A stretch of 64,000 nt of DNA from an uncultured SAR86 cluster bacterium (GTDB lineage Bacteria; Pseudomonadota; Gammaproteobacteria; Magnimaribacterales; D2472): assembly GCA_902515455.1 (NCBI GenBank), contig CABXUO010000001.1, forward strand, positions 7,297 to 71,296, given 5' to 3'. Below are positions 5,765 through 54,355 of this stretch, in pieces; the first letter of the stretch is position 1, and each line of letters opens with the position of its first letter. Both the position numbers and the translations under genes were made by a program. The notes below the pieces were generated by a model, which saw only the letters and a list, made by a program, of their open reading frames with translations, made no database searches and was not told where the DNA came from.

Positions 5765-6203
5765 TCAAAAAGATCTTTTAAGAGCTCCCTTTGAGCTTGC
5801 TTATAATTATAAGCGTTCAAGCGGTCCTCTTATGTCAAAATTTTTTGATGCCTTAGCAGAACAAAAAATCCTAGGCACAAAAAGCAGCACTGGAAAGGTG
5901 TATGCTCCGGCTGCTGAATTTGATCCAGAGACTCATGAATCATTGAGTGACTTAGTAGAGGTTGGACCTGGCGGAGTGATCGAATCATTTAGTTGGATTG
6001 AAGAGCCAAAACATCATCACTTAATTAAAAATCCATTTGCATTTGCTTTAATCAAATTGGATGGAGCTGATACATCTATGCTCCATATGGTTACTGAGTG
6101 TGATGAAGAAGACCTAAAAATTGGATCAAGGGTCACAGCAAATTGGTCTGCAACTATTGAGAATCGCATAACTGATATTAAATTTTTTACCTTAGAAAAA
6201 TGA
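5757..6203 (+). CDS. DUF35-type OB-fold protein with a degenerate (Cys-less) zinc-ribbon region
   Basis: Size and layout of a DUF35/OB-fold acyl-CoA-associated protein (..FALIKLDGADTSMLHMV..IGSRVTANW). No CxxC pairs. ATG at 5757 is preferred over TTG at 5748. Its stop overlaps the next start (ATGA). Confidence 0.65.
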   Translation: MSDQKDLLRAPFELAYNYKRSSGPLMSKFFDALAEQKILGTKSSTGKVYAPAAEFDPETHESLSDLVEVGPGGVIESFSWIEEPKHHHLIKNPFAFALIKLDGADTSMLHMVTECDEEDLKIGSRVTANWSATIENRITDIKFFTLEK

Positions 6204-6697
6204 GCGAAGAAGAAAAAAAAGATTACGCTGAGTCTCCAATAAATTTGGAATATCATTATACAGCTGGATCAGCTACCACCCGATTTCTTAACCAAGTTAA
6301 AGAAGGCAAAATTGTAGGTCAGTCATGCCCAAAATGCAGCGCTGTATATGTACCTCCAAGAGGCAGCTGTCCAAGATGTGGAGTAGCAACAAATATCGAG
6401 GTTCCATTGACTGATAAAGGCTGCATTGAATCATTTACTATTGTGCATATTCCTATTCCGGGTAATCCCATCGTGCCGCCATATGTTTGTGCAATGATCA
6501 GGCTCGATGGAGCTAACATTTCTTTTTTGCATCTCATTCAAGGAATTGATGTTGAAGAAATAAGAATTGGGATGCGTATACAAGCAGTTTGGAAGCCTAA
6601 AGATGAATGGACTCATTCATTAGAGAACATCAAATGGTTTACTCCTATAGATGAACCAGATGTTGATGTTGCAACATTGAGGTTTCAAGAATCATGA
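6200..6697 (+). CDS. DUF35-type OB-fold protein with an intact 4-Cys zinc ribbon
   Basis: CPKCSAVYVPPRGSCPRCG rubredoxin-like ribbon followed by an OB-fold (CAMIRLDGANISFLHLIQG..IGMRIQAVW). ATGA overlaps on both sides. Confidence 0.75.
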   Translation: MSEEEKKDYAESPINLEYHYTAGSATTRFLNQVKEGKIVGQSCPKCSAVYVPPRGSCPRCGVATNIEVPLTDKGCIESFTIVHIPIPGNPIVPPYVCAMIRLDGANISFLHLIQGIDVEEIRIGMRIQAVWKPKDEWTHSLENIKWFTPIDEPDVDVATLRFQES

Positions 6698-7749
6698 GAA
6701 AAGTAGCAATCGTAGGATATGCTCAACATCCTATTTTAGAGAATGCGGGAGCTTTAAACGAAGTTGAACTCATCATGCCAGTTGTTCATCAGCTGTTTGA
6801 TGAATTAGGTATAAGTCAAAATAACATAGATTTTACCTGCTCAGGTAGTTGTGATTATTTGCAAGGAGCTGCTTTTGCATTTGTTGAAGGTTTATCTGCC
6901 ATTCAAACCAATCCTCCCATTAAAGAGTCGCATGTAGAAATGGATGCAGCTTGGGCGATGTATGAATCAATGCTAAAAATTCAAATGGGAGATGCAGATA
7001 CTGCATTGATTTATGGATTTGGTAAATCTTCTCCCGGTAGACTCGATTCAATAATTTCATTACAAATGGATCCTTATTACATTTCACCTCTTTGGCCAGA
7101 TCGAGTAAGTTTGGCTGCAATACAGGCAAGGGTGCTGCTTGAAAAAAATATCATAACTCCTGAACAAATGATTACAGCTGTTATTGAGGCAAGAACTAAT
7201 TCTAAGAATAATAAAAATGCACTTGTTACTGAATTGGTTGATAAAGAAGCATATCTAGCAAGTGAGAACATTTCTTCTCCACTCAATGAATTTGATTGTC
7301 CTCCAATATCTGACGGATCTTCTGCCATGATCATTGCCTCAGAAGAAAAAGCATATGAATTCACTGATCATCCTATTTTTATTGAAGGCATCGATCATAG
7401 AATTGAATCATCAAATATAGGCTCACGGGATCTTTCAAAACCTTCTGGAATACTGGCTTCAATTGAGCAGTTAAAACTTGAAAAAATAAAATTTGATGTT
7501 GCTGAGTTACATACTCAATTTAGTCATGAGGTGCCTTACTTACAATCCGTTTTAAACCTTAGTGATGTTCCAACAAATTTATCAGGTGGACCATTGGTTG
7601 GTAATGTCATGATGTGTGCAGGTTTGGATGCAATTGGCAAAACTTACGAGTCATTAAAATCCCATGATTTTACAAATGGCCTGGCGCATGCATCCTCTGG
7701 CCCATGTTTACAACATAACATGCTTGTTCATTTGGAGAAAAAATCATGA
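6694..7749 (+). CDS. thiolase-like (SCP-x/Ltp-type) protein lacking the nucleophilic Cys
   Basis: Thiolase-fold layout (VAIVGYAQ.., ..GFGKSS, NLSGGPL). The position aligned to the Cys of the N-x-C-A-S/T-G motif reads VEMDAAWA. Confidence 0.7.
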   Translation: MRKVAIVGYAQHPILENAGALNEVELIMPVVHQLFDELGISQNNIDFTCSGSCDYLQGAAFAFVEGLSAIQTNPPIKESHVEMDAAWAMYESMLKIQMGDADTALIYGFGKSSPGRLDSIISLQMDPYYISPLWPDRVSLAAIQARVLLEKNIITPEQMITAVIEARTNSKNNKNALVTELVDKEAYLASENISSPLNEFDCPPISDGSSAMIIASEEKAYEFTDHPIFIEGIDHRIESSNIGSRDLSKPSGILASIEQLKLEKIKFDVAELHTQFSHEVPYLQSVLNLSDVPTNLSGGPLVGNVMMCAGLDAIGKTYESLKSHDFTNGLAHASSGPCLQHNMLVHLEKKS

Positions 7750-8894
7750 TTCAGGCTGGTGTAATTGGAGTTGGACAAACTAAATATGATGCCAAAAGAA
7801 GGGATGTATCCATGGGTGGATTAGTCCGAGAGGCAATAGATAATGCCATGTTAGCTGCTAATGTTGAATGGGACGCTATAGACGCTGTTATATTAGGCAA
7901 AGCACCAGACATGTTTGAGGGTGTGGTTATGCCTGAGTTATATTTAGCCGATGCTATTGGAGCTGTTGGTAAGCCGGTCCTCCGAGTCCATACTGCTGGT
8001 AGTGTTGGAGGGAGCACAGGTGTTATTGCCGCAACCCATGTTTGTTCAGGGCAATTTAAAACAGTTTTAACTGTAACATTTGAAAAACAATCTGAATCAA
8101 ATGCAACGTGGGCATTATCCCCACGTTACCCATATTCTCCTCATATCAATGCAGGTGCTGGAGGATACTTTGCTCCATTTATCAGAGAGTACATTCGCAG
8201 ATACGATGCTCCAGAACATATTGGTTGGAAAGTTGCAGTTAAAGATCGTTTGAATGCACTCAAGAATCCACTAGCCCATCTTCATATTCCAGGGATAGAT
8301 GAAAAAATGGTAAGTGACACTCCTATGCTTTGGGAGCCATTAAGATATCTTGAGAGTTGCCCATCGTCCGATGGAGCCTGTGCCATGGTAATTACATCCA
8401 AAGATCTTGTGGGCTCAAGAGATGTTGCATGGATAAAAGGAATGGCTGTTAGATCTGAGGGCACTTTGTCCGCAGGCAGAGATGAGGTCAATCCTCAGGC
8501 AGGAATTGATTGCGCAAAAGATATCTATGATCAGGCAGGCATAACCAATCCATACAAGGAAATTGATTGTGCAGAAATTTATGTTCCATTTTCTTGGTAT
8601 GAGCCAATGTGGTTGGAAAATTTAGGATTTTGTGATCTGGGAGAAGGATGGAAACTGACCGACAAAGATGCAACAGCTATAGATGGAGAAATACCTTTTA
8701 ATATGTCTGGTGGAGTTATGTCGTCCAATCCGATTGGAGCATCGGGAATGATTCGTTTTGGTGAAGCAGCCTTACAAGTTATGGGTAAGGCAAATGATCA
8801 TCAAGTTGAGGATGCGAAAGTTGCAATGGGACATGCTTATGGTGGAGCAGCACAATTTTTTGCAATGTGGATAGTCTCATCATCACTAGATTAG
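7746..8894 (+). CDS. thiolase-like (SCP-x/Ltp-type) protein lacking the nucleophilic Cys and the GHP histidine
   Basis: VHTAGSVGGSTG...TFEKQSE aligns to VNNxCATGSTA...GFEKMS with Gly at the Cys position. NMSGGVMSSNPIGASG occupies the place of NPSGG..GHPxGATG. Confidence 0.75.
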   Translation: MIQAGVIGVGQTKYDAKRRDVSMGGLVREAIDNAMLAANVEWDAIDAVILGKAPDMFEGVVMPELYLADAIGAVGKPVLRVHTAGSVGGSTGVIAATHVCSGQFKTVLTVTFEKQSESNATWALSPRYPYSPHINAGAGGYFAPFIREYIRRYDAPEHIGWKVAVKDRLNALKNPLAHLHIPGIDEKMVSDTPMLWEPLRYLESCPSSDGACAMVITSKDLVGSRDVAWIKGMAVRSEGTLSAGRDEVNPQAGIDCAKDIYDQAGITNPYKEIDCAEIYVPFSWYEPMWLENLGFCDLGEGWKLTDKDATAIDGEIPFNMSGGVMSSNPIGASGMIRFGEAALQVMGKANDHQVEDAKVAMGHAYGGAAQFFAMWIVSSSLD

Positions 8895-8907
8895 TTAGGA
8901 GTTATTT

Positions 8908-9705
8908 ATGAATACAGAGCATGCGATTGTAGAAGAAAAAGGCCACATAATGGTCATTACACTTAATCGTCCTGAAAAAAGAAATGCGTTAAGTCCAGGC
9001 ATGTTATTAACTGTATATGAAGCTTGGAGAAAACTCGACGAAGATTCTAATCTAAGATGCGCTGTCTTGACTGGTGCAGGCGGTACTTTTTGTTCTGGGG
9101 CTGACCTAAGTGCTATGAAGGATGGAAATGAAGATTCTGAGATGATGGAAAAATTAAAAGAAATTCCTGATTTACATTGGCAATCTCTGTTAAGGCACAA
9201 CAGGCCTAATAAACCAATTATTGCAGCAGTCGAGGGGTTTGCACTTGCTGGAGGTACAGAGATTTTACAGGGTACAGATATTAGAGTTGCAGGAAAAAGT
9301 GCCGTATTTGGTCTAACAGAACCGTTAAGGGGCTTATTTCCATTAGGTGGCTCGACTGTTCGACTTAGAAGGCAAATTCCTTATACTCTGGCAGCAGAAG
9401 CATTGTTAACTGGGAGGAGAATTTCCTCTGAAGAAGCATTAAGATTTGGGCTTATTGGTCATATCGTAGATGATGGAACTGCTCTAGATAAAGCTATGGA
9501 AATTGCAGAAACCGTCAGTGCAAATGCACCATTATCTATTCAGGCAATTGTTAAATCTTTAAGAGAAATTGATGAGAGCTATCTAGAATCAGAAGCATTG
9601 GAAAAAGAGTTAGAAATAGGGCAGCCCGTTTTTTCGACAGAAGATATGATGGAAGGGCTGACTGCTTTTGCAGAAAAAAGAAAACCAAATTTCAAAGGTA
9701 AGTGA
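8908..9705 (+). CDS. enoyl-CoA hydratase/isomerase (crotonase family)
   Basis: ITLNRPEKRNAL, GAGGTFCSGADL, AAVEGFALAGGTE and a C-terminal FAEKRKPNFKG. AGGAG-like RBS upstream. Confidence 0.85.
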   Translation: MNTEHAIVEEKGHIMVITLNRPEKRNALSPGMLLTVYEAWRKLDEDSNLRCAVLTGAGGTFCSGADLSAMKDGNEDSEMMEKLKEIPDLHWQSLLRHNRPNKPIIAAVEGFALAGGTEILQGTDIRVAGKSAVFGLTEPLRGLFPLGGSTVRLRRQIPYTLAAEALLTGRRISSEEALRFGLIGHIVDDGTALDKAMEIAETVSANAPLSIQAIVKSLREIDESYLESEALEKELEIGQPVFSTEDMMEGLTAFAEKRKPNFKGK

Positions 9706-10436
9706 GTAAACTTTTAATTGAGACCGAAAAAGGTATTCGTACCTTAATCTTTAACCGCCCAGAAAAAAAGAATGCATTTGACGCCGAATTGTGGGCTATG
9801 TTTAGAGACGAGCTAAATTTAGCAAGCGACGATCCTGACATCTATTCTGTGATTGTAACTGGTTCGTCCAATACTTTTTCTTCGGGTGTTGATCTAAGCA
9901 GCATGATGGGAGATGGGGGTGCAGAATATGAAGAGCCATTTGAAACTTGTATCGATGCATTAATAAATTTTAAAAAACCATTAATAGGAGCTGTTGAGGG
10001 AGCTGCTGTAGGTGGAGGTGCAACCATTTTATTGCATTTTGATGCTGTTTTTATTTCTCCAAATACAAAAATAAAATATCCATTTTCTGAATTAGGCTTA
10101 GCTCCTGAGGTTGGCAGTTCTTATTTATTATTTCAGGCACTAGGATATCAACAAGCGGCTCAACTTTTATTTCAATCTAAAATCATTGATGGAACTAAAT
10201 ATTATGAATTAGGTCTAGCCAAATATGTTGGTGATGATTTTCTAGATCAAGCTTATAGTTATGCACAAGATTTAAAAGAACAATCACTCAGCTCAATTAT
10301 TGAAACTAAAGCAATTTTAAAATCATTTATGTTGGAAGATCTTGCTGAAGCTCGTTCGATAGAAAATAAAGCAATGAAAAAATTATTTGGTTCTGAAGAT
10401 AACTTAAAAGCTGTAGAGAAGTTTTTTAATAAATAA
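9702..10436 (+). CDS. enoyl-CoA hydratase/isomerase family protein
   Basis: LIFNRPEKKNAF, GSSNTFSSGVDL and GAVEGAAVGGGAT. GTG start overlaps the upstream stop (GTGA). Confidence 0.8.
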   Translation: MSKLLIETEKGIRTLIFNRPEKKNAFDAELWAMFRDELNLASDDPDIYSVIVTGSSNTFSSGVDLSSMMGDGGAEYEEPFETCIDALINFKKPLIGAVEGAAVGGGATILLHFDAVFISPNTKIKYPFSELGLAPEVGSSYLLFQALGYQQAAQLLFQSKIIDGTKYYELGLAKYVGDDFLDQAYSYAQDLKEQSLSSIIETKAILKSFMLEDLAEARSIENKAMKKLFGSEDNLKAVEKFFNK

Positions 10437-46676: not shown

Positions 46677-47402
46677 ATGAATAGTAATATTTGGACTGAT
46701 ATAAAAAAAGAAATTTCATTAAGAATTGATGCTGAGCCATCTTTAAAGGATTATCTTGAGAGCTTAATTTTATCAAAAGATAATATTATCGAGGCCACGG
46801 CAGCAATTCTTGCATCAAAACTTCATAATGATGCATTATCATCAATTGACTTATATCACATTATTTTGTCTTCCTATAATGAAAAAAAATCTGTTGAAGG
46901 CAGCCTAATAGAGGATATTTTATTTTTTCGTGAAAATGATCCGGCTTGTAAATATTTATCTACACCACTTCTTTTTTATAAGGGTTTTCAAGGCTTAGCT
47001 GCATATAGATCAAGCAATATTTTATGGAATAATGATCGTCACACCATGGCTTTGTATATTCAAAATAGATCATCTGAAGTATTTGGTGTTGATATCCATC
47101 CAGCTGCATTCATTGATAGCTCCGTAATGATTGACCATGCTACAGGAGTTGTAATTGGCGAAACAGCGAAAATTAAAAAGGGCGTTTCAATTTTTCAAGG
47201 CGTTACATTAGGCGGGAAGGGTTTCAATAGCGGCGATAGGCATCCTAAAATTGAAGAGGGAGTCTCTATTTTTGCATCAAGCACAATATTAGGAAATGTA
47301 ACAATTGGTAAAAATTCTGTTGTTGCTGCTGGAAGTTTAGTCCTTGATGATGTTGAGAATGAATCGACAGTAGCAGGTATTCCTGCAAAAAAAATTAAAT
47401 AG
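46677..47402 (+). CDS. cysE: serine O-acetyltransferase
   Basis: N-terminal SATase helical domain plus left-handed beta-helix hexapeptide repeats (IDHATGVVIGETA, GVTLGG, GDRHPKIEEGV, AGIPAK). Confidence 0.85.
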   Translation: MNSNIWTDIKKEISLRIDAEPSLKDYLESLILSKDNIIEATAAILASKLHNDALSSIDLYHIILSSYNEKKSVEGSLIEDILFFRENDPACKYLSTPLLFYKGFQGLAAYRSSNILWNNDRHTMALYIQNRSSEVFGVDIHPAAFIDSSVMIDHATGVVIGETAKIKKGVSIFQGVTLGGKGFNSGDRHPKIEEGVSIFASSTILGNVTIGKNSVVAAGSLVLDDVENESTVAGIPAKKIK

Positions 47403-48417
47403 AACTTAAAATTTCTTTTTCTTCATCATTCATTTCAGAATCAATCTTTTCAAATAATACGGATGATAAATATCTTTCTGCGGTATCTGCCAGCATACAT
47501 AATATATTTGCTCCATCTGCTGCCTCCTCAGCGATTTTCATTGCGACTGCAAATGTTGATCCTCCAGATATACCAGTAATTATTCCTTCATTTCTAGCTA
47601 ATTTATTGGACCAGTAAACCCCATCTTCGCCTGAAACAGGTATATTCATATCAAAATAATTTTTATCAATTGATTCTTGTAAAACCAAAGGGATAAAGTC
47701 AGGTGTCCAGCCTTGAATTGGATGAGGGTTCCATGAATCATGTCCGCTTGCAGGCGAACCATCTTGATTTCTTTTTTGTGCTATCAAACTATTTACTAAT
47801 TGAGCATTGTCAGGCTCAGTAATAACAAGTTTTGTTCTAGGTGATTGTTCTTTTAAAACACGTGAGACCCCGCTGAAAGTTCCACCTGTTCCATAACCTG
47901 ATACCCAATAATCTAATCCTAATTCTTTGAAGTCATTCAAAATTTCAATAGCAGTTGTTTTTTCATGAATATCTGCATTTGCATCATTTTCAAACTGCCT
48001 GGCATAAAACCATTTATTTTTATCACATAACTTTTTAGCAAGGTTATATGCAGCAGTTGTTCCTTCAGATGCTGGAGTTAAAAGAACTTTAGCGCCAAGA
48101 AATCGCATTAATTTTCTTCTTTCAACTGAGGTACTATCAGGCATTGTCATAACACATGGATAACCTTTGCTTGCGCATACCATTGCTAATCCAATTCCAG
48201 TATTCCCACTTGTGGCTTCAACTACAGTTTGATTTGGTTCTAATAGCCCTTCCTTTTCAGCTTTTTCAATTATATTCAAAGCCAATCTATCCTTTACTGA
48301 GCCACCAGGATTAAAGTATTCAGCTTTAACAAAAAGGTTTATATTTTTGGGAGCAATATTTTTAATTTTTATAATTGGTGTATTACCAATTGAGCTTAAT
48401 AGATCTTTATAAATCAT
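47395..48417 (-). CDS. cysteine synthase / PLP-dependent CysK-family enzyme (long form with an insertion)
   Basis: NPGGSVKDR PLP-lysine motif, SGNTG and GTGGT. A 340-aa form carries the ..HPIQGWTPDFIP insertion. Confidence 0.8.
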   Translation of the reverse strand: MIYKDLLSSIGNTPIIKIKNIAPKNINLFVKAEYFNPGGSVKDRLALNIIEKAEKEGLLEPNQTVVEATSGNTGIGLAMVCASKGYPCVMTMPDSTSVERRKLMRFLGAKVLLTPASEGTTAAYNLAKKLCDKNKWFYARQFENDANADIHEKTTAIEILNDFKELGLDYWVSGYGTGGTFSGVSRVLKEQSPRTKLVITEPDNAQLVNSLIAQKRNQDGSPASGHDSWNPHPIQGWTPDFIPLVLQESIDKNYFDMNIPVSGEDGVYWSNKLARNEGIITGISGGSTFAVAMKIAEEAADGANILCMLADTAERYLSSVLFEKIDSEMNDEEKEILSSI

Positions 48418-48467
48418 GATAAGTGCCTTACGTAAAGTTTAAAAATTTCATTTACTTTAAACATTAT

Positions 48468-48501
48468 AATTAAAATTAAAATTAAAATTAAAATTAAAAT
48501 T
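48468..48501. repeat. hexanucleotide microsatellite (AATTAA) x 5.7
   Basis: Counted directly: five perfect AATTAA units plus AATT. Lies in the 104-nt gap between the Rieske gene stop and the cysK-like start. Confidence 0.9.
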
Positions 48502-48521
48502 TCGATTTAATAAGTAATTTA

Positions 48522-49655
48522 TTATAGTTTTTCTGGTTCTGTATCTTGATAAGATAATGGAATAGCGTCTCTTATTTTGTTAGCGCTATCTATTAAGCAT
48601 ACTTCAGATGATGCAAGTGGGCCTGATTTAAAGTAGTTTGTATTCATGCCTTCTTGAACAAGATTAATTAATTTCGTATCTTCGTTATTAACTTGTCTAT
48701 TAATTCTCCAATTTAGATATTGAGCAACTTTAGTCTCTCTTCTATCATCAGGAAGAGCATATGCAATTTCCCTGATTATTGTTGTTTTTGCGTCTATGGG
48801 TATGAATTGCATGAAATCCATTTGTTCAGGATATATATCAAATGCAAGATTTGGCCAAAGCCTGAAATAAACCCAGTATCTTTGTTTGTTTTTTGGAAGA
48901 TGGTCCATGTAAGGCAAGTATTTATCATAAAGTTTGTTTGAAAGATTATTTTTACGAGAATTTTTTCCATCTCCCCACATTTTATGAATGTATCCATTAT
49001 TAGGGGATACTTCAACGCCATAGCTTTTGCCTACTAGCCCAGATAACCCAGGATGAGCTACAGGAATATGAAGAGCATCAACGTAGTTATCAGCAATCTG
49101 CTTCCAGTTAACATTTCTTGGTCTCATCGTAATTCTTCCTAGCGGCTCCATTTCATTGAGTTTGTATTGACTTATTTCGTCAAGGTATGGAGCAAACTGA
49201 CTATTAACAGTTGGAACATCTGACTCAATTAACTTTACAAAAATAAAACCTTGAAAAATTTCCATTTCAACACTTTTTAATTTGTGCTCATTTTTATTGA
49301 AATCAATAAATTGATTTTCGTAAGGTACTTTTATGAGGTTGCCATTAAAATCATATCCCCATGCATGATAGGGACATGTTATTTTTCCTTTGCAGGTTCC
49401 AGATGTTTCATCAATAAGCTTAGTTCCTCTATGAGAGCAGAAGTTATGAAAAGCCCTTACATTTTTATCTTCACCTCTGATAACAAATACTCTTTCATTA
49501 AAAATCTCAAATGTAAAATAATCTCCTGCTTTAGGTATGTTAGAAATATGACAAACCAATTGCCAATTTTTAAGAATTAACTCAGTTTTTTCGAGTTCAA
49601 AAAATGCATCACTTGTATAAGTCCATCCTGGCAAACTTTTATATATTTTTTTCAT
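48522..49655 (-). CDS. Rieske [2Fe-2S] non-haem iron oxygenase, alpha-subunit type
   Basis: CSHRG...CPYHAWGY Rieske motif and a mononuclear iron motif NYVDALHIPVAH (D-x2-H-x4-H). Confidence 0.85.
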   Translation of the reverse strand: MKKIYKSLPGWTYTSDAFFELEKTELILKNWQLVCHISNIPKAGDYFTFEIFNERVFVIRGEDKNVRAFHNFCSHRGTKLIDETSGTCKGKITCPYHAWGYDFNGNLIKVPYENQFIDFNKNEHKLKSVEMEIFQGFIFVKLIESDVPTVNSQFAPYLDEISQYKLNEMEPLGRITMRPRNVNWKQIADNYVDALHIPVAHPGLSGLVGKSYGVEVSPNNGYIHKMWGDGKNSRKNNLSNKLYDKYLPYMDHLPKNKQRYWVYFRLWPNLAFDIYPEQMDFMQFIPIDAKTTIIREIAYALPDDRRETKVAQYLNWRINRQVNNEDTKLINLVQEGMNTNYFKSGPLASSEVCLIDSANKIRDAIPLSYQDTEPEKL

Positions 49656-49658
49656 ACG

Positions 49659-50525
49659 TTAGTTTCTTATTAGCGGTCTTGTTAGGCAAGTAGGTCCACC
49701 TTCACCTTTTCGACTAATTTCATCACCTTTATAAAAACGAATTTTGCATCCAATCTTCTCAAGTTTATTTTTAATTTCAGGTAAATTTTCAAGCATGATA
49801 ATTGATCTTGGAGCTGTTGCCAAAATGTTACACCCCATTAATGGATATTCAGCTTCACTCACTTCAATAAATTCTATTCCTAATTTAGTGAGCCAGTTTA
49901 AAAATGTTTCAGGCATAAAAGGCTTATAGATAACTGCAAGATCTTTATCTAATGGTGAAATTATTGACATTAAATGCAAGACATCATCTGGATGATCTGG
50001 ATCAGGCAAATTTACAATATGTAGATCGATTTCTGGGCCTAAAATTTCTTTGAGTTGACGAATTCCTTCAGAATTGGTTCTTGGTCCTAAACCAACTGCA
50101 GCATTTTTATTATCTATCCAAATAAAATCACCGCCTTCAAGCGTCCCAGGTGATTTTATTTGTCCTGCAACTTTATACCCATTATCTGCAAGAGTTTTAA
50201 AATTCTCCTCTGCTTCAGGCGTTCTAGATGATCTTCCCATATTACATAGAATCAAACCTGAGTCACATACCAAAATACTATCTCTGGTATAAATACTATC
50301 TAAAGTTAACTTATCTGAGGAGGGGAGCTCAATGATCTTGATTTCATCTTCTTCAAGAAAACTCCTAAAATAATCGTATTCAATAATTGCTTTTTTTAGA
50401 TCTGGTTTTGCATGAAATCTAAGTGGCGTCCATTCATTTGTAATTTTTTCATCATTAACAAAGCTTGAAAGTGGAGACCTAATTGCAACCTCACTTATTT
50501 TAGAGTATTCATTTAATAGGTTCAT
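49659..50525 (-). CDS. guanidino-group-modifying enzyme (amidinotransferase / DDAH / arginine deiminase-like fold)
   Basis: YTRDS, LEGGDF, VLHLMS and a C-terminal GEGGPTCLTRPL (nucleophilic Cys), the order seen in the DDAH/ADI superfamily. Confidence 0.7.
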   Translation of the reverse strand: MNLLNEYSKISEVAIRSPLSSFVNDEKITNEWTPLRFHAKPDLKKAIIEYDYFRSFLEEDEIKIIELPSSDKLTLDSIYTRDSILVCDSGLILCNMGRSSRTPEAEENFKTLADNGYKVAGQIKSPGTLEGGDFIWIDNKNAAVGLGPRTNSEGIRQLKEILGPEIDLHIVNLPDPDHPDDVLHLMSIISPLDKDLAVIYKPFMPETFLNWLTKLGIEFIEVSEAEYPLMGCNILATAPRSIIMLENLPEIKNKLEKIGCKIRFYKGDEISRKGEGGPTCLTRPLIRN

Positions 50526-51829
50526 AATTCTGTTTTAAAAAGATATATAGGTGTTCCAATGAAAATTAGAATAACTGAATACATAATCATCTCTATGCCT
50601 GCTCCCCAAATAGCAAAAATTGCGTATAAAAAGGTCCCAAATGATATCAAAAAAGCATACTTTTTTTGCTGACTTTTTTTATTTGTATGCACAAATTTTA
50701 ATTCAGCCATAGCACAAAATGCATAGGCTATTAAAGTGGATAATGTTGAGAGCATGGCCATAAAAACAAATGCATTTATGATGCCTTTTGTATAATTCAA
50801 CATTAACAGAATACTTACAAATGTACCTGACAACAGATATGTAAATATAGGTGTGCCAGATTTTGTTAATGATATAAATTTAGCTGGAAGTAAGCCATCT
50901 CTTGCTGCTGCTAAACTTAAGTTACCTGCTGTAAGTGTGTTTGCATTTAATGAGCCCAAAGTAGAAACAAGAGCTCCAATAGTAATTAGTGTGCCGCCTG
51001 TAGATCCTAAAATTTTGCTAGCAGCTAAAGCAAATGGGGCAGAGGAATCTATGAGTTCTTTTGCTGGAACGATCAATGCAATCGCAAAACTTACTAGGAT
51101 ATAAAGAGTCAAAATTGTTAAAACAGATGCTATTAAAACTTTTGGGATAGTTTCTTGAGGATTAATTACATTATCTGCAGGAACTGTTGCAGTTTCAATT
51201 CCAATGAATGACCACATAACTAAGGTCGTGACAGTACCTAGCAATGAAAGAGGGTGAAGGTTGGTTGGATTAAACTCCGGCAAGTTACTAACATTTAAAT
51301 TTGACGCGCCGAGAAAAATAATTAATAGAAGAGGTAATAATTTCAATAGAGTTGAAATTAGCTGAAATCTACTACTGTTTTCTATGCTTTTAATATTTAG
51401 AAGTACAACAGCCCAAACTAACAACAGTGAAGCAATCAAAGAATGAATTGGCGAATCGCTAATATTTGGAATAAAAAAACCTAAATAGCCAACAAAGGCT
51501 ATTGATATTCCCGCAATTGCAGAAATACATGCAATCCAATAAGTCCAGGCAATTATAAAGCCAGAAAAACTTCCCAGTGCTTCATTGACATAAACATAAG
51601 GACCTCCAGTCTTTGGCATTCTTATTACCAGTTGAGCCATCGTTAGGGCAACTAAGATTGATCCTAGTCCTGCTATAAGCCAACCAAAGAAACCAAGCAT
51701 CCCGTAGGGTGCTAAAATTGTAGGCATCATAAAAATCCCTGAGCCAATAGCGCAGCCAACTGCTATGGACCAGCCCCTCCAAAATCCAATAACTCTATGT
51801 TGATTAGAATTCATCAAATGATAATACAC
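50522..51829 (-). CDS. APC-superfamily amino acid/polyamine permease
   Basis: 12-TM protein. GCAIGSGIFMMP and GGPYVYV motifs resemble basic amino acid/polyamine antiporters. Its stop overlaps the next start (ATGA). Confidence 0.8.
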   Translation of the reverse strand: MYYHLMNSNQHRVIGFWRGWSIAVGCAIGSGIFMMPTILAPYGMLGFFGWLIAGLGSILVALTMAQLVIRMPKTGGPYVYVNEALGSFSGFIIAWTYWIACISAIAGISIAFVGYLGFFIPNISDSPIHSLIASLLLVWAVVLLNIKSIENSSRFQLISTLLKLLPLLLIIFLGASNLNVSNLPEFNPTNLHPLSLLGTVTTLVMWSFIGIETATVPADNVINPQETIPKVLIASVLTILTLYILVSFAIALIVPAKELIDSSAPFALAASKILGSTGGTLITIGALVSTLGSLNANTLTAGNLSLAAARDGLLPAKFISLTKSGTPIFTYLLSGTFVSILLMLNYTKGIINAFVFMAMLSTLSTLIAYAFCAMAELKFVHTNKKSQQKKYAFLISFGTFLYAIFAIWGAGIEMIMYSVILIFIGTPIYLFKTEL

Positions 51830-51907
51830 CTAAAAAATAAGGTTTTTTAATAATATGAAGTTCTCATCAAGACACGATGAGTAATAAGAGAATTTAGATA
51901 AAGCGAT

Positions 51908-52504
51908 TTAAGATTTTTTTGCCATCATTATTACTAATTTATATAAGATCGGCGCCATGATTAACCATGGTAATTGTGTCTGAAACATAACGCTCCTTTC
52001 ATTGAACTCAAACAGTAGTGGATTAAAGTATTGGCCAGTTGGTGCGAAGGGAGCCCATGAAAGTATTTTCCCCTCTGACAATTGATCATGATATAAAAAA
52101 AGTTCTACAAAGAGATTTTGTGTAATGCACCATAAAAGTAGGATACTAAATGCAGACCAGTTCCATTGCTCAAATATCAATGAATTTTTATCACTCCATT
52201 TCCACATTAACCACAAACCTACAAAAGAGATCGTTCCAGCATCTGCCATTGAATTTAATAGCCAATTTATATGAATGGGAATCCATTCATTTAAAACGCT
52301 GGATCTCCTTAAATTAACTGGATCTCCATCAATCCACCCATATGTGAACCAGAGCTCCCAACCCAATGAGCACATAATGAACATACCAGCATATAAGGAT
52401 GGAACCCATTTTGGGATTTTATCCTTGTGATAAAAGTAAATAACTAGAGGAACAAGAGCACTAACATAAACAATTAATATTACTCTTAGTTCCTCTAGCG
52501 TCAT
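51908..52504 (-). CDS. Trp-rich polytopic membrane protein, unknown function
   Basis: 198 aa with about 5-6 hydrophobic segments and many Trp residues (GWELWFTYGW, LWLMWKW, EQWNW). No family recognised. 3 nt downstream of the DUF4177 gene. Confidence 0.6.
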   Translation of the reverse strand: MTLEELRVILIVYVSALVPLVIYFYHKDKIPKWVPSLYAGMFIMCSLGWELWFTYGWIDGDPVNLRRSSVLNEWIPIHINWLLNSMADAGTISFVGLWLMWKWSDKNSLIFEQWNWSAFSILLLWCITQNLFVELFLYHDQLSEGKILSWAPFAPTGQYFNPLLFEFNERSVMFQTQLPWLIMAPILYKLVIMMAKKS

Positions 52505-52507
52505 TAA

Positions 52508-52723
52508 TTAAATTTGACGTCTTAAGTATATTTGTTTTGGGCCATCTTGAGAGATTAATTCCCAGCTTTCTTTCCCAAGTTTATTTAACTCAATTCTAGA
52601 CATCTCATATTTCCAATGTACAGCATCTTTATGTTCAATCTTAAATGCTTCAGTCTCTTCGTTTGAGTAACCCATAGCTGTTGAATTGCTATGATCGACA
52701 ATTTTATATTCCCATTTTGTCAT
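52508..52723 (-). CDS. DUF4177-like small protein (71 aa)
   Basis: MTKWEYKIV... ...LNKLGKESWELIS matches the WEYK / LN..G..GWEL pattern of DUF4177. GGAG RBS 7 nt upstream. Confidence 0.6.
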   Translation of the reverse strand: MTKWEYKIVDHSNSTAMGYSNEETEAFKIEHKDAVHWKYEMSRIELNKLGKESWELISQDGPKQIYLRRQI

Positions 52724-52752
52724 TTTTTCATCTCCTGCCGGTTGGCAATAAG

Positions 52753-52805
52753 ATGCGTTCCTTCAGTATCATTACTTACTTCCGTCCTATGAAAGGATGA
52801 ACGAT
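52753..52805 (-). ncRNA. candidate glutamine riboswitch (glnA-RNA / Downstream-peptide class), cis-regulatory leader
   Basis: The minus-strand RNA reads AUCGUUCAUCCUUUCAUAGGACGGAAGUAAGUAAUGAUACUGAAGGAACGCAU. P1 is CGUUC/GAACG. Hairpin UCCU-uucau-AGGA. Conserved ACGGAAGUA. Hairpin AGUA-auga-UACU. Conserved GAAGGAACGC. It lies 29 nt upstream of the DUF4177 ATG. Confidence 0.65.
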
Positions 52806-52811
52806 AAGATA

Positions 52812-52841
52812 ATTTTCACAAATTATGTTCATCGGTGTCAA
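52812..52841 (-). promoter_or_regulatory. sigma-70-like promoter for the riboswitch leader
   Basis: The minus strand has TTGACA (52836-52841), an 18-nt spacer and GAAAAT (52812-52817). The predicted start falls about 7 nt downstream, at the first aptamer nucleotides. Confidence 0.4.
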
Positions 52842-52884
52842 ATTTGAAATGATATTTCATCAAATATGATGGTTATCTGTTACA

Positions 52885-52912
52885 TTTACTTATTTCTAAA
52901 AGTCTTTAAAAT
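52885..52912 (+). promoter_or_regulatory. sigma-70-like promoter for tRNA-Ser
   Basis: TTTACT-N16-TAAAAT ends 17 nt before the mature tRNA 5' end. Confidence 0.35.
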
Positions 52913-52929
52913 GCCTTACCTTAAGGAAT

Positions 52930-53019
52930 GGAGAGATGGCAGAGCGGTTGAATGCACTGGTCTTGAAAACCAGCAAACCTTCGCGGGTTTCCAGGGTTCG
53001 AATCCCTGTCTCTCCGCCA
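52930..53019 (+). tRNA. tRNA-Ser (anticodon UGA), CCA encoded
   Basis: Acceptor GGAGAGA/TCTCTCC. Anticodon stem CTGGT/ACCAG with loop CTTGAAA. Long variable arm AAACC-ttcgc-GGGTTT. T arm CAGGG-TTCGAAT-CCCTG. Discriminator G plus CCA. Confidence 0.95.
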
Positions 53020-53023
53020 GTTT

Positions 53024-54355
53024 TTAGTTGCTCAAACTAGAATAGAGTAATGTTTTAAGTTCCTCTCGAAGTGGATATTTATCCGATGGCATGTACTGCG
53101 TCATCATTGTAGCTGCAACATTATTTTTTTTATCCACCCAGAAAATTGTGCTAGCAGCACCACCCCAAAAAAATTCTCCCTTTGAAGAATAAGTTCCAGC
53201 AACACCAGGATTCATAATAGTTCCAACTGTTAATCCGAAACCAACACCTTCTAATCCAAAAGCAGATCCATCTTTTAGAATTTCATCTGAGAGATGATTA
53301 TTTGACATCAAATTTACAGATGCTTCACTGAGGATTCTGACACCATTTAAAATACCACCATTTAAAAGCATCTCAGCAAATTTACTATAATCATCTATAT
53401 TCGAGACTAGACCTGAACCACCATCATAAAGTTTTGAGGAATTTGTAAGATATGGCGACTTATCAAAGGCGTCTATTGGTCTAAGTTCTTTGGAAAATAT
53501 AAGCTCAGCTTGATTTAAACCAGAAGGAGCAACAATTTCTCCATCTCTCGAAAATGCTCCTGAGGTATAAAGTGTTGTAAATGAATCCTTATCACTTTCA
53601 TTTACTGAAAAGCCAATACTTTCAAGTCCCAATGGATCAAATATATTTTTTTGAAGATACTCAGCAAATGTCATTTTTGAAATCACTTCAACCACGCATC
53701 CCAAAATATCCATATTAATTCCATATGACCATTTTTCTCCTGGATTATGAAGGAGAGGTACAGAGGCTGCAGCAGTAGAAAACTGGCAGGTATTGCCTGG
53801 AAATTTATTTAGTTCTGCATCCACAGCTCCAAAATAATAGGGACGAATATTATATTTTCTATACATTTGGTTAACTGGACCTTCACCAGCCCAGCTGTAA
53901 GTAAGGCCACTTGTATGAGTTAATAAGTCTCTAATTGTTACTTCTCTTTTTGGTTTTACCACATAATCTTGAAAATCAAGATTGATAACTTTTGTATTTT
54001 TAAAAGCAGGAATATATTTAGAAACCTTGTCATTTAATCTTAATTTTCCACTCTCAATGAGTTGCATAATTGCAACGCCAGTAACCGGCTTTGTCATTGA
54101 GTAAATTCTAAAAACAGTTTTTTTGTCTATATTTATATTTTTTTCAATATCCGCATATCCGTGAGTGTGACGAAATATTTCTTTACTATCTTTTTTTATT
54201 AGAATTGAGATATTAGGTAAACTGCCGTTATTAACATATTCATTAAAATGATTTGAAATTCTTTTTTTGTCTTCTGAGTCAAGCGAGCTTGCAGAAATTT
54301 GCAATGATATTAAAAAAAATAATATTAATGATCTAAAGATTCTCATAAATTTCAC
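53024..54355 (-). CDS. serine hydrolase, beta-lactamase (class C)/esterase family, secreted
   Basis: Signal peptide, S-x-x-K motif SMTKPVTG, and downstream Tyr and GG motifs. Confidence 0.8.
   Translation of the reverse strand: MKFMRIFRSLILFFLISLQISASSLDSEDKKRISNHFNEYVNNGSLPNISILIKKDSKEIFRHTHGYADIEKNINIDKKTVFRIYSMTKPVTGVAIMQLIESGKLRLNDKVSKYIPAFKNTKVINLDFQDYVVKPKREVTIRDLLTHTSGLTYSWAGEGPVNQMYRKYNIRPYYFGAVDAELNKFPGNTCQFSTAAASVPLLHNPGEKWSYGINMDILGCVVEVISKMTFAEYLQKNIFDPLGLESIGFSVNESDKDSFTTLYTSGAFSRDGEIVAPSGLNQAELIFSKELRPIDAFDKSPYLTNSSKLYDGGSGLVSNIDDYSKFAEMLLNGGILNGVRILSEASVNLMSNNHLSDEILKDGSAFGLEGVGFGLTVGTIMNPGVAGTYSSKGEFFWGGAASTIFWVDKKNNVAATMMTQYMPSDKYPLREELKTLLYSSLSN

What the first reader, a model, noticed from the sequence alone, without database searches (positions are those of the whole stretch)
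48522..51829. Tightly coupled APC permease / guanidino-modifying enzyme / Rieske oxygenase operon: possible guanidino or methyl-arginine nitrogen scavenging
Three minus-strand genes are fused by an ATGA overlap (50522-50525) and a 3-nt gap.
- An APC permease resembling basic amino acid/polyamine antiporters.
- A 288-aa amidinotransferase/DDAH/ADI-fold enzyme with the C-terminal GGPTC nucleophile.
- A Rieske non-haem iron oxygenase of the type that includes N-demethylases such as the glycine betaine, carnitine and stachydrine enzymes.
I do not recognise this import + guanidino hydrolysis/transfer + Rieske oxidation combination as a named pathway. It sits only 78 nt downstream of the riboswitch-led module on the same strand. 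A 6-bp hairpin (51863-51881) in that gap lacks a U-tract, so read-through is possible.
Basis: partly seen in the sequence, partly recalled or inferred. Interest (0 to 1): 0.6.

Follow-up and report, generated by a model that had tools for sequence, protein, structure and literature searches.

The report
Methylarginine uptake operon with Rieske oxygenase
A small marine bacterium carries a three-gene unit (an importer, a DDAH-like hydrolase and a carnitine-oxygenase-like iron enzyme) that most likely lets it feed on methylated arginine shed by other organisms; the iron enzyme would add an oxidative step not yet described for this pathway.

Summary
The three minus-strand genes are real and translationally coupled, with a 4-nt overlap and a 3-nt gap. 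One correction: the permease starts at the conserved ATG 51814, not GTG 51829.

- **Gene identities.** The genes encode an AdiC-like APC permease, a 288-aa DDAH-fold hydrolase of a distinct family, and a Rieske oxygenase. The hydrolase keeps the Cys-His-Glu triad and lacks ADI's second Asp. The Rieske oxygenase's closest solved relative by sequence, fold and tree is carnitine monooxygenase CntA, not aromatic dioxygenases.
- **Within the genus.** All three genes are present in 15 of 24 relatives, or all three are absent.
- **Elsewhere.** Permease plus hydrolase is a widespread pair (50 of 81 species loci). CntA-like Rieske genes join it in several lineages, in different arrangements.
- **An alphaproteobacterial-type genus.** There the sister Rieske sits with an APC permease and a P. 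aeruginosa-type DDAH relative. Three near-complete genomes there keep permease plus Rieske with no DDAH-fold gene at all.

My reading is a methylarginine import module with two parallel enzymes: hydrolysis to citrulline plus methylamines, and oxidative N-demethylation. Substrates are inferred, not shown. The unit has its own conserved promoter-like block and does not depend on the upstream glutamine riboswitch. First readers of this scan noted the same trio in two other genomes.

The parts
50522..51814 (-). APC-superfamily permease (AdiC-like, basic amino acid/polyamine antiporter type), 430 aa from the conserved ATG; the mechanical ORF runs to GTG 51829
   Evidence: Family matches: PF13520 at 152 bits; TIGR00905 at 246 bits (cut-off 409); AdiC structures at 7e-56. 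The GSG and WSFIG(V/I)E motifs are kept, but AdiC N101 is Ile here and W293 is Asn. The start codon comes from the conserved ATG.
49659..50525 (-). DDAH-like guanidino-modifying hydrolase, 288 aa (family with C-terminal GGPTCLTRP)
   Evidence: Family matches: PF02274 at 70 bits; PF19420 at 55 bits; the best NCBIfam model is a dimethylargininase at 81 bits (cut-off 340). The AF2 model has pLDDT 94.9, and its top Foldseek hit is P. aeruginosa DDAH 3rhy with TMt 0.90. C280, H184, D82, R101 and R149 are invariant and E130 and D76 nearly so across 16 diverse members.
48522..49655 (-). Rieske [2Fe-2S]/mononuclear-iron oxygenase alpha subunit, 377 aa, CntA-like (group V)
   Evidence: Best PDB sequence hit is CntA at 9e-38, full length. 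The top 13 Foldseek hits are CntA, followed by Stc2. In the tree it falls on the CntA/YeaW side, against Stc2/NdoB/AntA (90/95). Ligands C73, H75, C94, H97, H196, H201 and D326, and Tyr191 at the CntA-Y203 position, are present.
51819..51830 (-). Conserved block GGTGTATTATCA just upstream of the permease ATG; it contains a -10-like TATTAT (51821-51826) and an AGGTG Shine-Dalgarno-like core
   Evidence: The block is invariant in 16 genus genomes whatever gene lies upstream. The promoter scan lists TTAAAA-18-TATTAT at 51850..51821. It is not a genome-wide motif: 5 matches against 4 for the control.
51845..51850 (-). -35-like hexamer TTAAAA paired with the -10-like TATTAT
   Evidence: Found by the promoter scan and only partly conserved in the alignment. 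This is a consensus match, not shown to function.
51863..51881 (-). 6-bp hairpin after the upstream membrane-protein gene, with no U-tract
   Evidence: Read in the sequence. It is not called terminator-like and is not conserved in relatives.

Best explanation
The three genes form a self-contained module for taking up and breaking down N-omega-methylated arginines (ADMA, NMMA, probably SDMA). Such compounds are released when eukaryotic proteins are degraded.

1. The AdiC-like APC permease imports the methylated amino acid, possibly in exchange for a product.
2. The DDAH-like enzyme uses its Cys280-His184-Glu130 triad to hydrolyse the substituted guanidino group, giving citrulline plus mono- or dimethylamine. 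Citrulline then enters arginine synthesis through ArgG/ArgH.
3. The CntA-like Rieske oxygenase acts in parallel on the imported substrate, not on the hydrolase's products. It stacks the cationic methylated nitrogen group on Tyr191 and hydroxylates an N-methyl carbon. This releases formaldehyde and yields a less methylated arginine. That would open up substrates the hydrolase cannot take (for example SDMA) or regenerate arginine directly. Electrons must come from housekeeping ferredoxin systems.

Shown here: gene structure, family and fold assignments, catalytic residues, co-inheritance, and recurrent linkage across lineages.

Inferred: the substrates, the demethylation chemistry, the electron donor and the physiological role (a nitrogen or arginine source).
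For: **Coupling and co-inheritance**
- The genes have a 4-nt overlap and a 3-nt gap.
- The same 15 of 24 genus genomes hold all three genes and 9 hold none. Gene order is constant while the flanks vary.
- A close relative has the flanking genes 242 nt apart with the segment missing.

**Permease plus DDAH-like pair is widespread**
- The permease lies immediately upstream on the same strand in 50 of 81 species loci from Bacteroidota, Acidobacteriota and Proteobacteria.

**Rieske partners recur in different arrangements**
- An orthologue lies downstream in two Pseudomonadales MAGs and in Kordiimonas gwangyangensis.
- A divergent copy lies upstream in Flavobacteriaceae and Cytophagales.
- A convergent copy is found in one Pseudomonadota MAG.
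- All of these partners hit CntA best and keep the DNY tyrosine.

**Displacement by a closer DDAH relative**
- The sister Rieske clade (92/83 support) sits with an APC permease and a P. aeruginosa-type DDAH relative (1.6e-44 to 3rhy).
- This holds in 6 of 10 species of another genus. In one of them the DDAH is moved to the other end of the cluster.

**A known pairing**
- Genes that pass the DDAH equivalog cut-off (511 bits against 450) lie next to APC permeases in two gammaproteobacterial genomes.

**Hydrolase active site**
- The triad and the alpha-amino-acid binding residues are conserved.
- The motif after the His is HLMS, like DDAH's HLK[ST] and unlike ADI's HLDT.
- The nearest fold is PaDDAH.

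**Rieske acts independently of the hydrolase**
- Three genomes that are 98-100% complete have permease plus Rieske and no DDAH-fold gene. The positive control was detected.

**Rieske pocket**
- CntA's F258, N270, Y295 and Y315 are replaced by K/R, D, E and R. This fits a zwitterionic cationic amino acid.

**Metabolic and expression context**
- argG is present and no urease was found.
- Seawater metatranscriptome contigs from two studies cover all three genes at 95-99% identity.
Against: - No substrate was tested. Every specificity statement rests on homology and gene context.
- The DDAH-like protein scores far below every NCBIfam dimethylargininase cut-off (81 against 340; 56 against 450). It also carries ADI's YTRD motif where DDAH has FVED.
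- A DDAH-annotated relative in M. tuberculosis (Rv2323c, next to the permease rocE) is needed for growth on plain arginine (PMC4569260).
- The DDAH in the other genus is itself below the equivalog cut-off (171 against 450).
- No dedicated Rieske reductase was found. Only an Fdx-type ferredoxin and NqrF carry Fer2 domains, and both are also present in a genome that lacks the trio.
- Described group V enzymes act on quaternary ammonium groups (PMC7948474). None is known for methylguanidinium.
- The Rieske's nearest non-DDAH-linked clade pairs with a CrtO/CrtI-like flavoenzyme. The subfamily is therefore not tied to arginine chemistry throughout.
- Genus relatives are not independent samples.
Confidence: 0.5

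Rival explanations
1. Plain arginine catabolism. The DDAH-like protein is a short arginine deiminase or dihydrolase-type enzyme acting on unmodified L-arginine brought in by the permease, as proposed for Rv2323c with rocE in M. tuberculosis. The Rieske enzyme serves some side reaction.
For: - The YTRD motif is identical to ADI's FTRD-type motif, and the ADI Pfam model is the top Pfam hit (70 bits).
- ADI and ArgZ structures are close structural neighbours (TMq 0.80-0.86).
- Rv2323c is a precedent (PMC4569260).
- Agmatinase-family genes lie beside the pair in three loci.
- The wide distribution of the pair would fit a ubiquitous substrate.
Against: - The second guanidinium-binding Asp of ADI (HLDT) is absent: the motif is HLMS, and no alternative invariant acid is seen.
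- At 288 aa the protein lacks ADI's helical insertion.
- ADI NCBIfam scores are 62 and 50 bits against cut-offs of 414 and 489.
- The permease has lost AdiC's guanidinium contacts N101 and W293.
- In another genus the hydrolase's place is taken by a P. aeruginosa-type DDAH relative.
- This reading gives a cation-binding Rieske oxygenase no role.
Confidence: 0.2
2. Salvage of methylated basic amino acids through two unrelated branches. The permease imports several methylated basic amino acids. The hydrolase handles methylarginines. The Rieske enzyme handles a quaternary ammonium amino acid such as N-epsilon-trimethyllysine, or another betaine-like compound, by demethylation or C-N cleavage.
For: - All characterised group V enzymes use quaternary ammonium substrates, and the Tyr that makes the cation-pi contact is kept (PMC7948474).
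- The charged pocket residues would hold an amino-acid end.
- Permease plus Rieske works without any DDAH in three genomes.
- Permease plus hydrolase works without a Rieske in most loci.
Against: - It does not explain why two non-orthologous DDAH-type enzymes are recruited next to the same Rieske clade.
- It does not explain why three different CntA-like lineages join the permease-hydrolase pair.
- No lysine-catabolic gene is linked.
Confidence: 0.17
3. A sequential pathway in which the Rieske enzyme works on the hydrolase's products. It would demethylate dimethylamine or methylamine to ammonia, or hydroxylate C5 of citrulline to split off urea.
For: - The gene order is permease, hydrolase, Rieske.
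- Extra nitrogen could be won from the methylamines.
- Stc2-type enzymes perform successive demethylations (PMC10952381).
Against: - Three near-complete genomes keep permease plus the sister Rieske with no DDAH-fold gene.
- The pocket is lined with K/R, D, E and R, as for an amino acid rather than a small amine.
- No urease was found in the genus, so a urea product would waste nitrogen.
Confidence: 0.07
4. The adjacency has no common pathway. The Rieske gene is a passenger in a variable islet next to tRNA-Ser.
For: - The segment lies in a variable region beside a tRNA gene.
- The Rieske subfamily has other contexts elsewhere.
Against: - Presence is all-or-none in 24 genus genomes.
- The gap to the Rieske gene is 3 nt.
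- The same trio occurs in an alphaproteobacterium at 41-60% identity.
- Linkage recurs in other arrangements.
Confidence: 0.03

Closest known systems
P. aeruginosa DDAH (ddaH, PA1195; structures 1h70, 3rhy) and its use of methylarginines under DdaR control (Lundgren et al. 2017, cited in PMC12228812 and PMC8657755; the paper itself is not held)
   Same: - Same pentein fold (Foldseek TMt 0.90).
- Same Cys-His-Glu triad.
- Same Arg pair and Asp for the alpha-amino-acid end.
- A single guanidino-binding Asp.
- Genes that pass the DDAH equivalog cut-off also sit beside APC permeases.
   Different: - Only 22-24% identity, and far below the equivalog cut-offs.
- YTRD replaces FVED, and HLMS replaces HLKT.
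- About 35 extra residues.
- No sigma-54 activator gene lies adjacent.
- A Rieske oxygenase is attached, which I do not recall being described for the Pseudomonas system (from memory; the paper is not held).
Carnitine monooxygenase CntA/YeaW (group Va Rieske oxygenases; PMC7948474)
   Same: - Best sequence and structural match, over the full length.
- Alpha-only architecture.
- CntA-like N-x5-H spacing.
- Tyr at the Y203 cation-pi position.
- Rieske and 2-His-1-carboxylate ligands.
   Different: - About 24% identity.
- The bridging Glu is Asp.
- The Cys206/Cys209 pair is absent (Ala and Ile).
- The hydrophobic or polar pocket residues are replaced by K, D, E and R.
- No CntB-type reductase gene lies nearby or was found in the genome.
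- The partner genes are a permease and a DDAH-type hydrolase, not carnitine genes.
Stachydrine demethylase Stc2 and glycine betaine monooxygenase GbcA (group Vb N-demethylases)
   Same: The oxidative N-demethylation chemistry proposed here is theirs. GbcA is the top NCBIfam hit (129 bits, N-terminal half only), and Stc2 ranks next after CntA in the fold search.
   Different: - It falls on the CntA side of the tree, away from Stc2.
- It has Tyr where group Vb has Asn.
- The GbcA score is far below the cut-off of 670.
Arginine/agmatine antiporter AdiC
   Same: Best solved relative (7e-56). The GSG motif and the TM6 WSFIG(V/I)E residues that hold the amino-acid backbone are kept.
   Different: The residues that hold arginine's guanidinium, N101 and W293, are Ile and Asn here. 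No decarboxylase partner is present.
M. tuberculosis roc cluster (rocE permease + Rv2323c DDAH-family protein; PMC4569260)
   Same: A DDAH-annotated enzyme encoded beside an APC basic amino acid permease and used for nitrogen supply.
   Different: Its substrate is plain arginine, and it has no oxygenase. The window protein scores only 30 bits on the M. tuberculosis-type model.

Membership tests
Dimethylarginine dimethylaminohydrolase (DDAH, EC 3.5.3.18) | Pentein (guanidino-modifying) alpha/beta propeller fold of about 250-290 aa, without ADI's helical insertion | tested here: met
   AF2 model with pLDDT 94.9. The top Foldseek hits are PaDDAH 3rhy/1h70/3bpb (TMt 0.86-0.90).
Dimethylarginine dimethylaminohydrolase (DDAH, EC 3.5.3.18) | Cys-His-Glu/Asp catalytic triad | tested here: met
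   C280, H184 and E130 align with PaDDAH C249, H162 and E114. C280 and H184 are invariant and E130 is nearly so in 16 diverse members.
Dimethylarginine dimethylaminohydrolase (DDAH, EC 3.5.3.18) | One guanidino-binding Asp only; no second Asp two residues after the catalytic His (ADI, amidinotransferases: H-x-D) | tested here: met
   The motif is HLMS, against DDAH HLK[ST]. D82 aligns with PaDDAH D66. The ADI HLDT motif is from my own knowledge.
Dimethylarginine dimethylaminohydrolase (DDAH, EC 3.5.3.18) | Score above the curated equivalog cut-off of a DDAH model | tested here: not met
   NF045660 scores 80.8 against 340; NF045658 56 against 450; NF045659 30 against 300.
Dimethylarginine dimethylaminohydrolase (DDAH, EC 3.5.3.18) | Hydrolysis of ADMA/NMMA to citrulline plus amine, with no activity on arginine | not testable with these tools
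   Needs an enzyme assay.
Arginine deiminase (ADI, ArcA) | About 400-aa protein with a five-helix insertion, two guanidinium-binding Asp residues, and a score above the arcA cut-off | tested here: not met
   The protein is 288 aa. The Pfam ADI model matches only stretches. TIGR01078 scores 49.5 against 489, and NF002381 62 against 414. The second Asp is absent.
Group V (quaternary-amine) Rieske oxygenases, CntA type | Rieske CxH...CxxH cluster ligands and a 2-His-1-carboxylate iron site | tested here: met
   C73, H75, C94, H97; H196, H201, D326.
Group V (quaternary-amine) Rieske oxygenases, CntA type | Aromatic residue at CntA Y203 (clade Va cation-pi contact) | tested here: met
   Tyr191 in a DNY motif with CntA-like spacing. 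It is conserved in all partner Rieskes. The criterion is from PMC7948474.
Group V (quaternary-amine) Rieske oxygenases, CntA type | Groups with CntA rather than with aromatic ring-hydroxylating enzymes | tested here: met
   In the tree it falls on the YeaW/CntA side, against Stc2 + NdoB + AntA (90/95), with long-branch caveats. The top 13 Foldseek hits are CntA.
Group V (quaternary-amine) Rieske oxygenases, CntA type | Cys-x-x-Cys pair beside the iron site (present in some group V members) | tested here: not met
   Ala194 and Ile197 occupy these positions. The feature is from PMC10952381.
Group V (quaternary-amine) Rieske oxygenases, CntA type | Dedicated FNR/ferredoxin-type reductase partner (CntB, GbcB, Stc4) | tested here: not met
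   None lies in the locus. The only Fer2-domain genes in five genus genomes are an Fdx-type gene of about 112 aa and an NqrF-type gene of about 411 aa. Both are also in a genome without the trio.
Group V (quaternary-amine) Rieske oxygenases, CntA type | Quaternary ammonium substrate | not testable with these tools
   The pocket differs from CntA's (K, D, E, R). Needs an assay.
APC superfamily, basic amino acid/polyamine antiporter (APA) family | AA_permease_2 fold with the TM1 GSG and TM6 backbone-binding motifs | tested here: met
   PF13520 at 152 bits. The alignment to AdiC keeps GSG and WSFIG(V/I)E.
APC superfamily, basic amino acid/polyamine antiporter (APA) family | Score above the TIGR00905 or AdiC equivalog cut-off, and AdiC's guanidinium contacts | tested here: not met
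   TIGR00905 scores 246 against 409, and AdiC 235 against 574. N101 is Ile and W293 is Asn.

The most novel reading that the evidence does not exclude
The Rieske enzyme is an oxidative demethylase of free N-omega-methylarginines. It would convert SDMA, ADMA and NMMA stepwise to arginine plus formaldehyde. That would make it the first Rieske-type arginine demethylase and the first bacterial route for SDMA. It would work beside, and in some genomes instead of, DDAH-type hydrolysis.
Probability: 0.3. Interest if true: 0.75.

Novelty: new variant of a known kind. Interest (0 to 1): 0.6.

Why it matters
- **A possible new input to marine nitrogen cycling.** Methylated arginines are made in bulk by eukaryotes and released on protein turnover. 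Their fate in the sea is, as far as I know, little studied. The window's genome is a very small (roughly 1.1-1.5 Mb), AT-rich marine gammaproteobacterial MAG. Homologues of all three genes are abundant in marine metagenomes and appear in seawater RNA libraries. If the module does what is proposed, it adds a new input to the dissolved organic nitrogen and methylamine/formaldehyde budgets.
- **New enzymology.** The module would define two uncharacterised families: a widespread DDAH-like family usually paired with an APC permease, and a CntA-related Rieske clade whose pocket is built for a charged amino acid. A Rieske enzyme that removes methyl groups from methylarginine would be new chemistry for the family. 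It would also bear on the long-standing search for arginine demethylases.
- **Directly testable.** Cultured carriers exist: Kordiimonas gwangyangensis DSM 19435 for the trio, and Roseivirga ehrenbergii KMM 6017 for the Bacteroidota variant.

Tried and rejected
- **Literature.** Searches for Rieske with DDAH, methylarginine, guanidino/amidinotransferase or SAR86 found nothing describing this combination. The mangotoxin paper that matched the words is unrelated. The DdaR paper (PMC5370422) is not held.
- **Sphingobium neighbour.** I first read the FAD enzyme next to the sister Rieske in Sphingobium as an amine oxidase (PF01593). NCBIfam and PDB show it is CrtO/CrtI-like, so I drew no substrate inference from it.
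- **Other recurrent neighbours.** An acyl-CoA dehydrogenase, an APH kinase, methyltransferases, a CLC channel, a carbonic anhydrase and SusD reflect lineage synteny, not the pathway.
- **GFA gene.** The GFA (formaldehyde-activating) gene two genes downstream in L143 is separated from the cluster by glyQ. I do not use it as evidence.
- **Conserved upstream block.** It is not a genome-wide regulatory motif.
- **Protein atlas.** Look-ups gave only generic names.
- **Metatranscriptome contigs.** One RNA-library contig spans 51777-51996 and another spans 49621-49890. Contigs cannot prove a single transcript or exclude DNA carry-over, so read-through from the riboswitch module stays open. Parts without cover say nothing.
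- **Complex prediction.** I did not run it, because no binding claim is made.

Full report
**Observation.** The ORF list and the sequence confirm three minus-strand genes at 50522-51829, 49659-50525 and 48522-49655. There is an ATGA stop/start overlap at 50522-50525 and a 3-nt gap before the Rieske ATG. The promoter scan found fewer promoter-like sites in 47300-53100 than in shuffled sequence (20 against 25.8). No terminator-like site lies at either junction or in the gap upstream of the permease. The 6-bp hairpin at 51863-51881 is there and has no U-tract.

One correction concerns the permease start. I aligned the 200 nt upstream of the permease in 16 genomes of the genus. The block GGTGTATTATCA followed by 4-5 nt and ATG is invariant whatever lies upstream. 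In at least one genome the GTG frame is closed by a stop before the ATG. The permease therefore starts at ATG 51814. The block holds a -10-like TATTAT that ends 7 nt before the A of the ATG and is paired with TTAAAA at 18-nt spacing. It also holds an AGGTG core. It is either a promoter for a leaderless message or a ribosome site, and this cannot be settled here.

**What the proteins are: the permease.** It is an AA_permease_2 protein closest to the basic amino acid/polyamine antiporters. TIGR00905 scores 246 bits and AdiC 235 bits, both below their cut-offs. AdiC structures match at 7e-56. Against AdiC, the TM1 GSG and TM6 WSFIG(V/I)E motifs that hold the amino-acid backbone are kept. The two residues I recall as holding arginine's guanidinium, N101 and W293, are Ile and Asn here.

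**What the proteins are: the hydrolase.** The 288-aa protein matches the ADI and DDAH Pfam models weakly and no NCBIfam model above its cut-off. Its AF2 model is confident (pLDDT 94.9). Its best structural matches are the P. aeruginosa DDAH entries (TMt 0.86-0.90), followed by ADI, ArgZ and human DDAH-1.
- C280, H184 and E130 align with the PaDDAH triad.
- D82, R101, R149 and D76 align with the residues that I recall binding the ureido group, the carboxylate and the amino group of citrulline in PaDDAH.
- C280, H184, D82, R101 and R149 are invariant and E130 and D76 nearly so in 16 members down to 32% identity.
- The motif after the catalytic His is HLMS, like DDAH's HLK[ST]. It lacks the second Asp of ADI and the amidinotransferases.
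- The YTRD motif, however, is ADI-like.

The protein is thus a distinct family, DDAH-like in its architecture and in its one-Asp guanidino site.

**What the proteins are: the Rieske oxygenase.** It has all cluster and iron ligands.
- Its best PDB sequence match is CntA, at 9e-38 and full length. Aromatic dioxygenases match only the N-terminal half.
- The top 13 Foldseek hits of its model are CntA, followed by Stc2.
- In a 28-sequence tree it lies on the YeaW/CntA side, against Stc2, NdoB and AntA (90/95). The tool's long-branch warning applies.
- It keeps the Tyr that makes the cation-pi contact in CntA (PMC7948474). It has Asp for the bridging Glu and lacks the Cys pair.
- Where CntA has F258, N270, Y295 and Y315, it has Lys, Asp, Glu and Arg.

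**Co-inheritance.** The window belongs to a 1.15-Mb, 59%-complete MAG with about 34% GC. NCBI-named homologues read 'Gammaproteobacteria bacterium'.
- Of 24 other genomes in the genus, the same 15 hold all three genes and 9 hold none. None of 16 genomes from other families of the order has the hydrolase or the permease.
- In all 15, the order is permease-hydrolase-Rieske with short gaps. Meanwhile the cysK/cysE pair downstream and the membrane-protein module upstream come and go.
- One close relative has the beta-lactamase-family gene and cysK only 242 nt apart, with the whole segment missing. Another has the trio directly beside the tRNA-Ser gene, without the riboswitch module.

The trio is therefore a unit in a variable islet and does not depend on the glutamine riboswitch (RF01739, 60.6 bits).

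**Linkage outside the genus.** A scan of one genome per species found at least 588 loci encoding the hydrolase family.
- Among the best 80 plus one metagenome contig, an APC permease lies immediately upstream on the same strand in 50 of 81. These come from Bacteroidota, Acidobacteriota and Alpha- and Gammaproteobacteria.
- A Rieske alpha-type gene is adjacent in 13. It is an orthologue (57-67% identity) directly downstream in two Pseudomonadales MAGs and in the alphaproteobacterium Kordiimonas gwangyangensis DSM 19435.
- A 21-25%-identical one is divergently upstream in six Flavobacteriaceae, two Cytophagales (including Roseivirga ehrenbergii KMM 6017) and one unnamed contig. A convergent one occurs in a Pseudomonadota MAG.
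- The two divergent Rieske partners tested (one Flavobacteriaceae copy and the Pseudomonadota MAG copy) again have CntA as their best, full-length PDB match, and all five aligned keep the DNY tyrosine.
- No other neighbour is conserved across lineages. Agmatinase-family genes sit beside the hydrolase in three loci.

**The most informative comparison.** A phylum-wide sample found Rieske homologues at 44-52% identity.
- One of them, in a complete 3.4-Mb genome, sits in the order DDAH - APC permease - Rieske. That DDAH is much closer to P. aeruginosa DDAH (1.6e-44 to 3rhy; NF045658 at 171 bits, still below the cut-off) than the window's protein is.
- In the tree, this Rieske is sister to the trio clade (92/83).
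- Nine further species of that genus have permease-Rieske orthologues. Four also have the DDAH upstream. One has it moved downstream of the Rieske. Four have none nearby.
- In three of those four genomes (98-100% complete), no DDAH-fold gene was found anywhere, using either the Pfam model or the protein itself. A positive control genome was detected.
- Separately, two gammaproteobacterial genomes have genes that pass the DDAH equivalog cut-off (511 bits against 450) directly beside APC permeases. As I recall it, this is the arrangement in P. aeruginosa, where ddaH supports growth on methylarginines (Lundgren 2017, seen only as a citation).

**Interpretation.** All three pairings occur in nature: permease with hydrolase, permease with Rieske, and all three together. 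Two different DDAH-type enzymes have been recruited next to one Rieske clade. The simplest account is that both enzymes act on what the permease imports, and that the import is the substrate class of DDAH, namely N-omega-methylated arginines.
- The hydrolase would give citrulline plus methylamines. argG is present, and no urease was found.
- The Rieske enzyme would carry out the oxidative N-dealkylation typical of its relatives. It has a cation-binding Tyr and a pocket lined for a charged amino acid.

A role for the Rieske enzyme on the hydrolase's products is made unlikely by the DDAH-free genomes. I put about 0.5 on the module-level reading and about 0.3 on the specific claim of methylarginine demethylation.

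**Rivals.** The main ones are plain arginine catabolism (precedent Rv2323c, PMC4569260; the ADI-like YTRD motif) and a Rieske substrate that is another methylated cationic amino acid, such as trimethyllysine.

**Weak points.**
- No assay has been done.
- Scores are below every curated cut-off.
- No dedicated reductase was found: only Fdx-type and NqrF-type Fer2 genes are present.
- The next Rieske clade out pairs with a CrtO/CrtI-like flavoenzyme of unknown role.
- Genus-level counts are not independent.

**Expression.** Contigs from seawater RNA libraries of two studies lie on all three genes at 95-99% identity. One spans the hydrolase/Rieske junction, and one spans the gap between the upstream membrane-protein gene and the permease. 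This shows presence in RNA libraries. It does not show a single transcript, and it cannot exclude DNA carry-over.

**Novelty.** No paper in the searched library describes the combination. First readers of this scan noted the same trio in two other genomes, without follow-up. I file it as a new variant of a known kind: DDAH-plus-permease methylarginine use, with a distinct hydrolase family and an added CntA-like oxygenase.

Noticed in passing
window 51812-51830: The permease's mechanical GTG start (51829) lies inside a 12-nt block that is invariant in 16 genus genomes. The conserved start is ATG 51814. A -10-like TATTAT ends 7 nt before it, so the message may be leaderless.
   Followed up: partly
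window 48418-53016; L173 (G006) 8120-8363; L019 (G007): The stretch from tRNA-Ser through the riboswitch module and the trio is a variable islet. One close relative has the flanking genes 242 nt apart with nothing between them. Another has the trio directly beside the tRNA without the riboswitch module.
   Followed up: partly
L036:8870-10141 (SAR92 MAG); L051:5388-6620, L075, L089: A BNR/sialidase-fold protein of about 410-423 aa with no Pfam assignment follows the DDAH-like gene by 3 nt in a SAR92 MAG, in the place the Rieske gene holds here. The same family sits just upstream of the permease in three Cyclobacteriaceae loci.
   Followed up: partly
L051:8891-9709, L061, L075, L089: In four Cytophagales loci (Cyclobacteriaceae and Ohtaekwangia) a fatty-acid-hydroxylase-family (membrane di-iron oxygenase) gene follows the DDAH-like gene. 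It may be a different oxygenase filling the Rieske's slot.
   Followed up: no
L033:2166-3128, L042:5657-6610, L097:418-1323; L042:6529-7977: Agmatinase-family ureohydrolase genes lie beside the DDAH-like gene in three unrelated loci. One of these also has a GntC-like PLP enzyme between them.
   Followed up: partly
L122 (Sphingobium sp. TomTYG65 pTomTYG65a) 5936-9775; L126, L128-L130: The next Rieske clade out (45-52% identical) forms a conserved pair with a CrtO/CrtI-like FAD oxidoreductase, preceded by an SBF-type or APC transporter. Its function is unknown.
   Followed up: partly
L143:9576-10055: A glutathione-dependent formaldehyde-activating (GFA) family gene lies two genes after the DDAH-permease-Rieske cluster, with glyQ in between. 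This is suggestive for a formaldehyde-releasing step, but it may be coincidence.
   Followed up: no
window 48424-48521: No terminator-like site follows the Rieske stop. An AT-rich tract with AATTTT/AATTAA repeats runs to the cysK-like gene on the same strand, which is absent after the Rieske gene in most relatives.
   Followed up: no
G012:C1:605604-606771: In one genus genome that lacks the trio, argG matches in two pieces (residues 1-74 and 71-390 in separate frames). This could be a frameshift or an assembly error.
   Followed up: no
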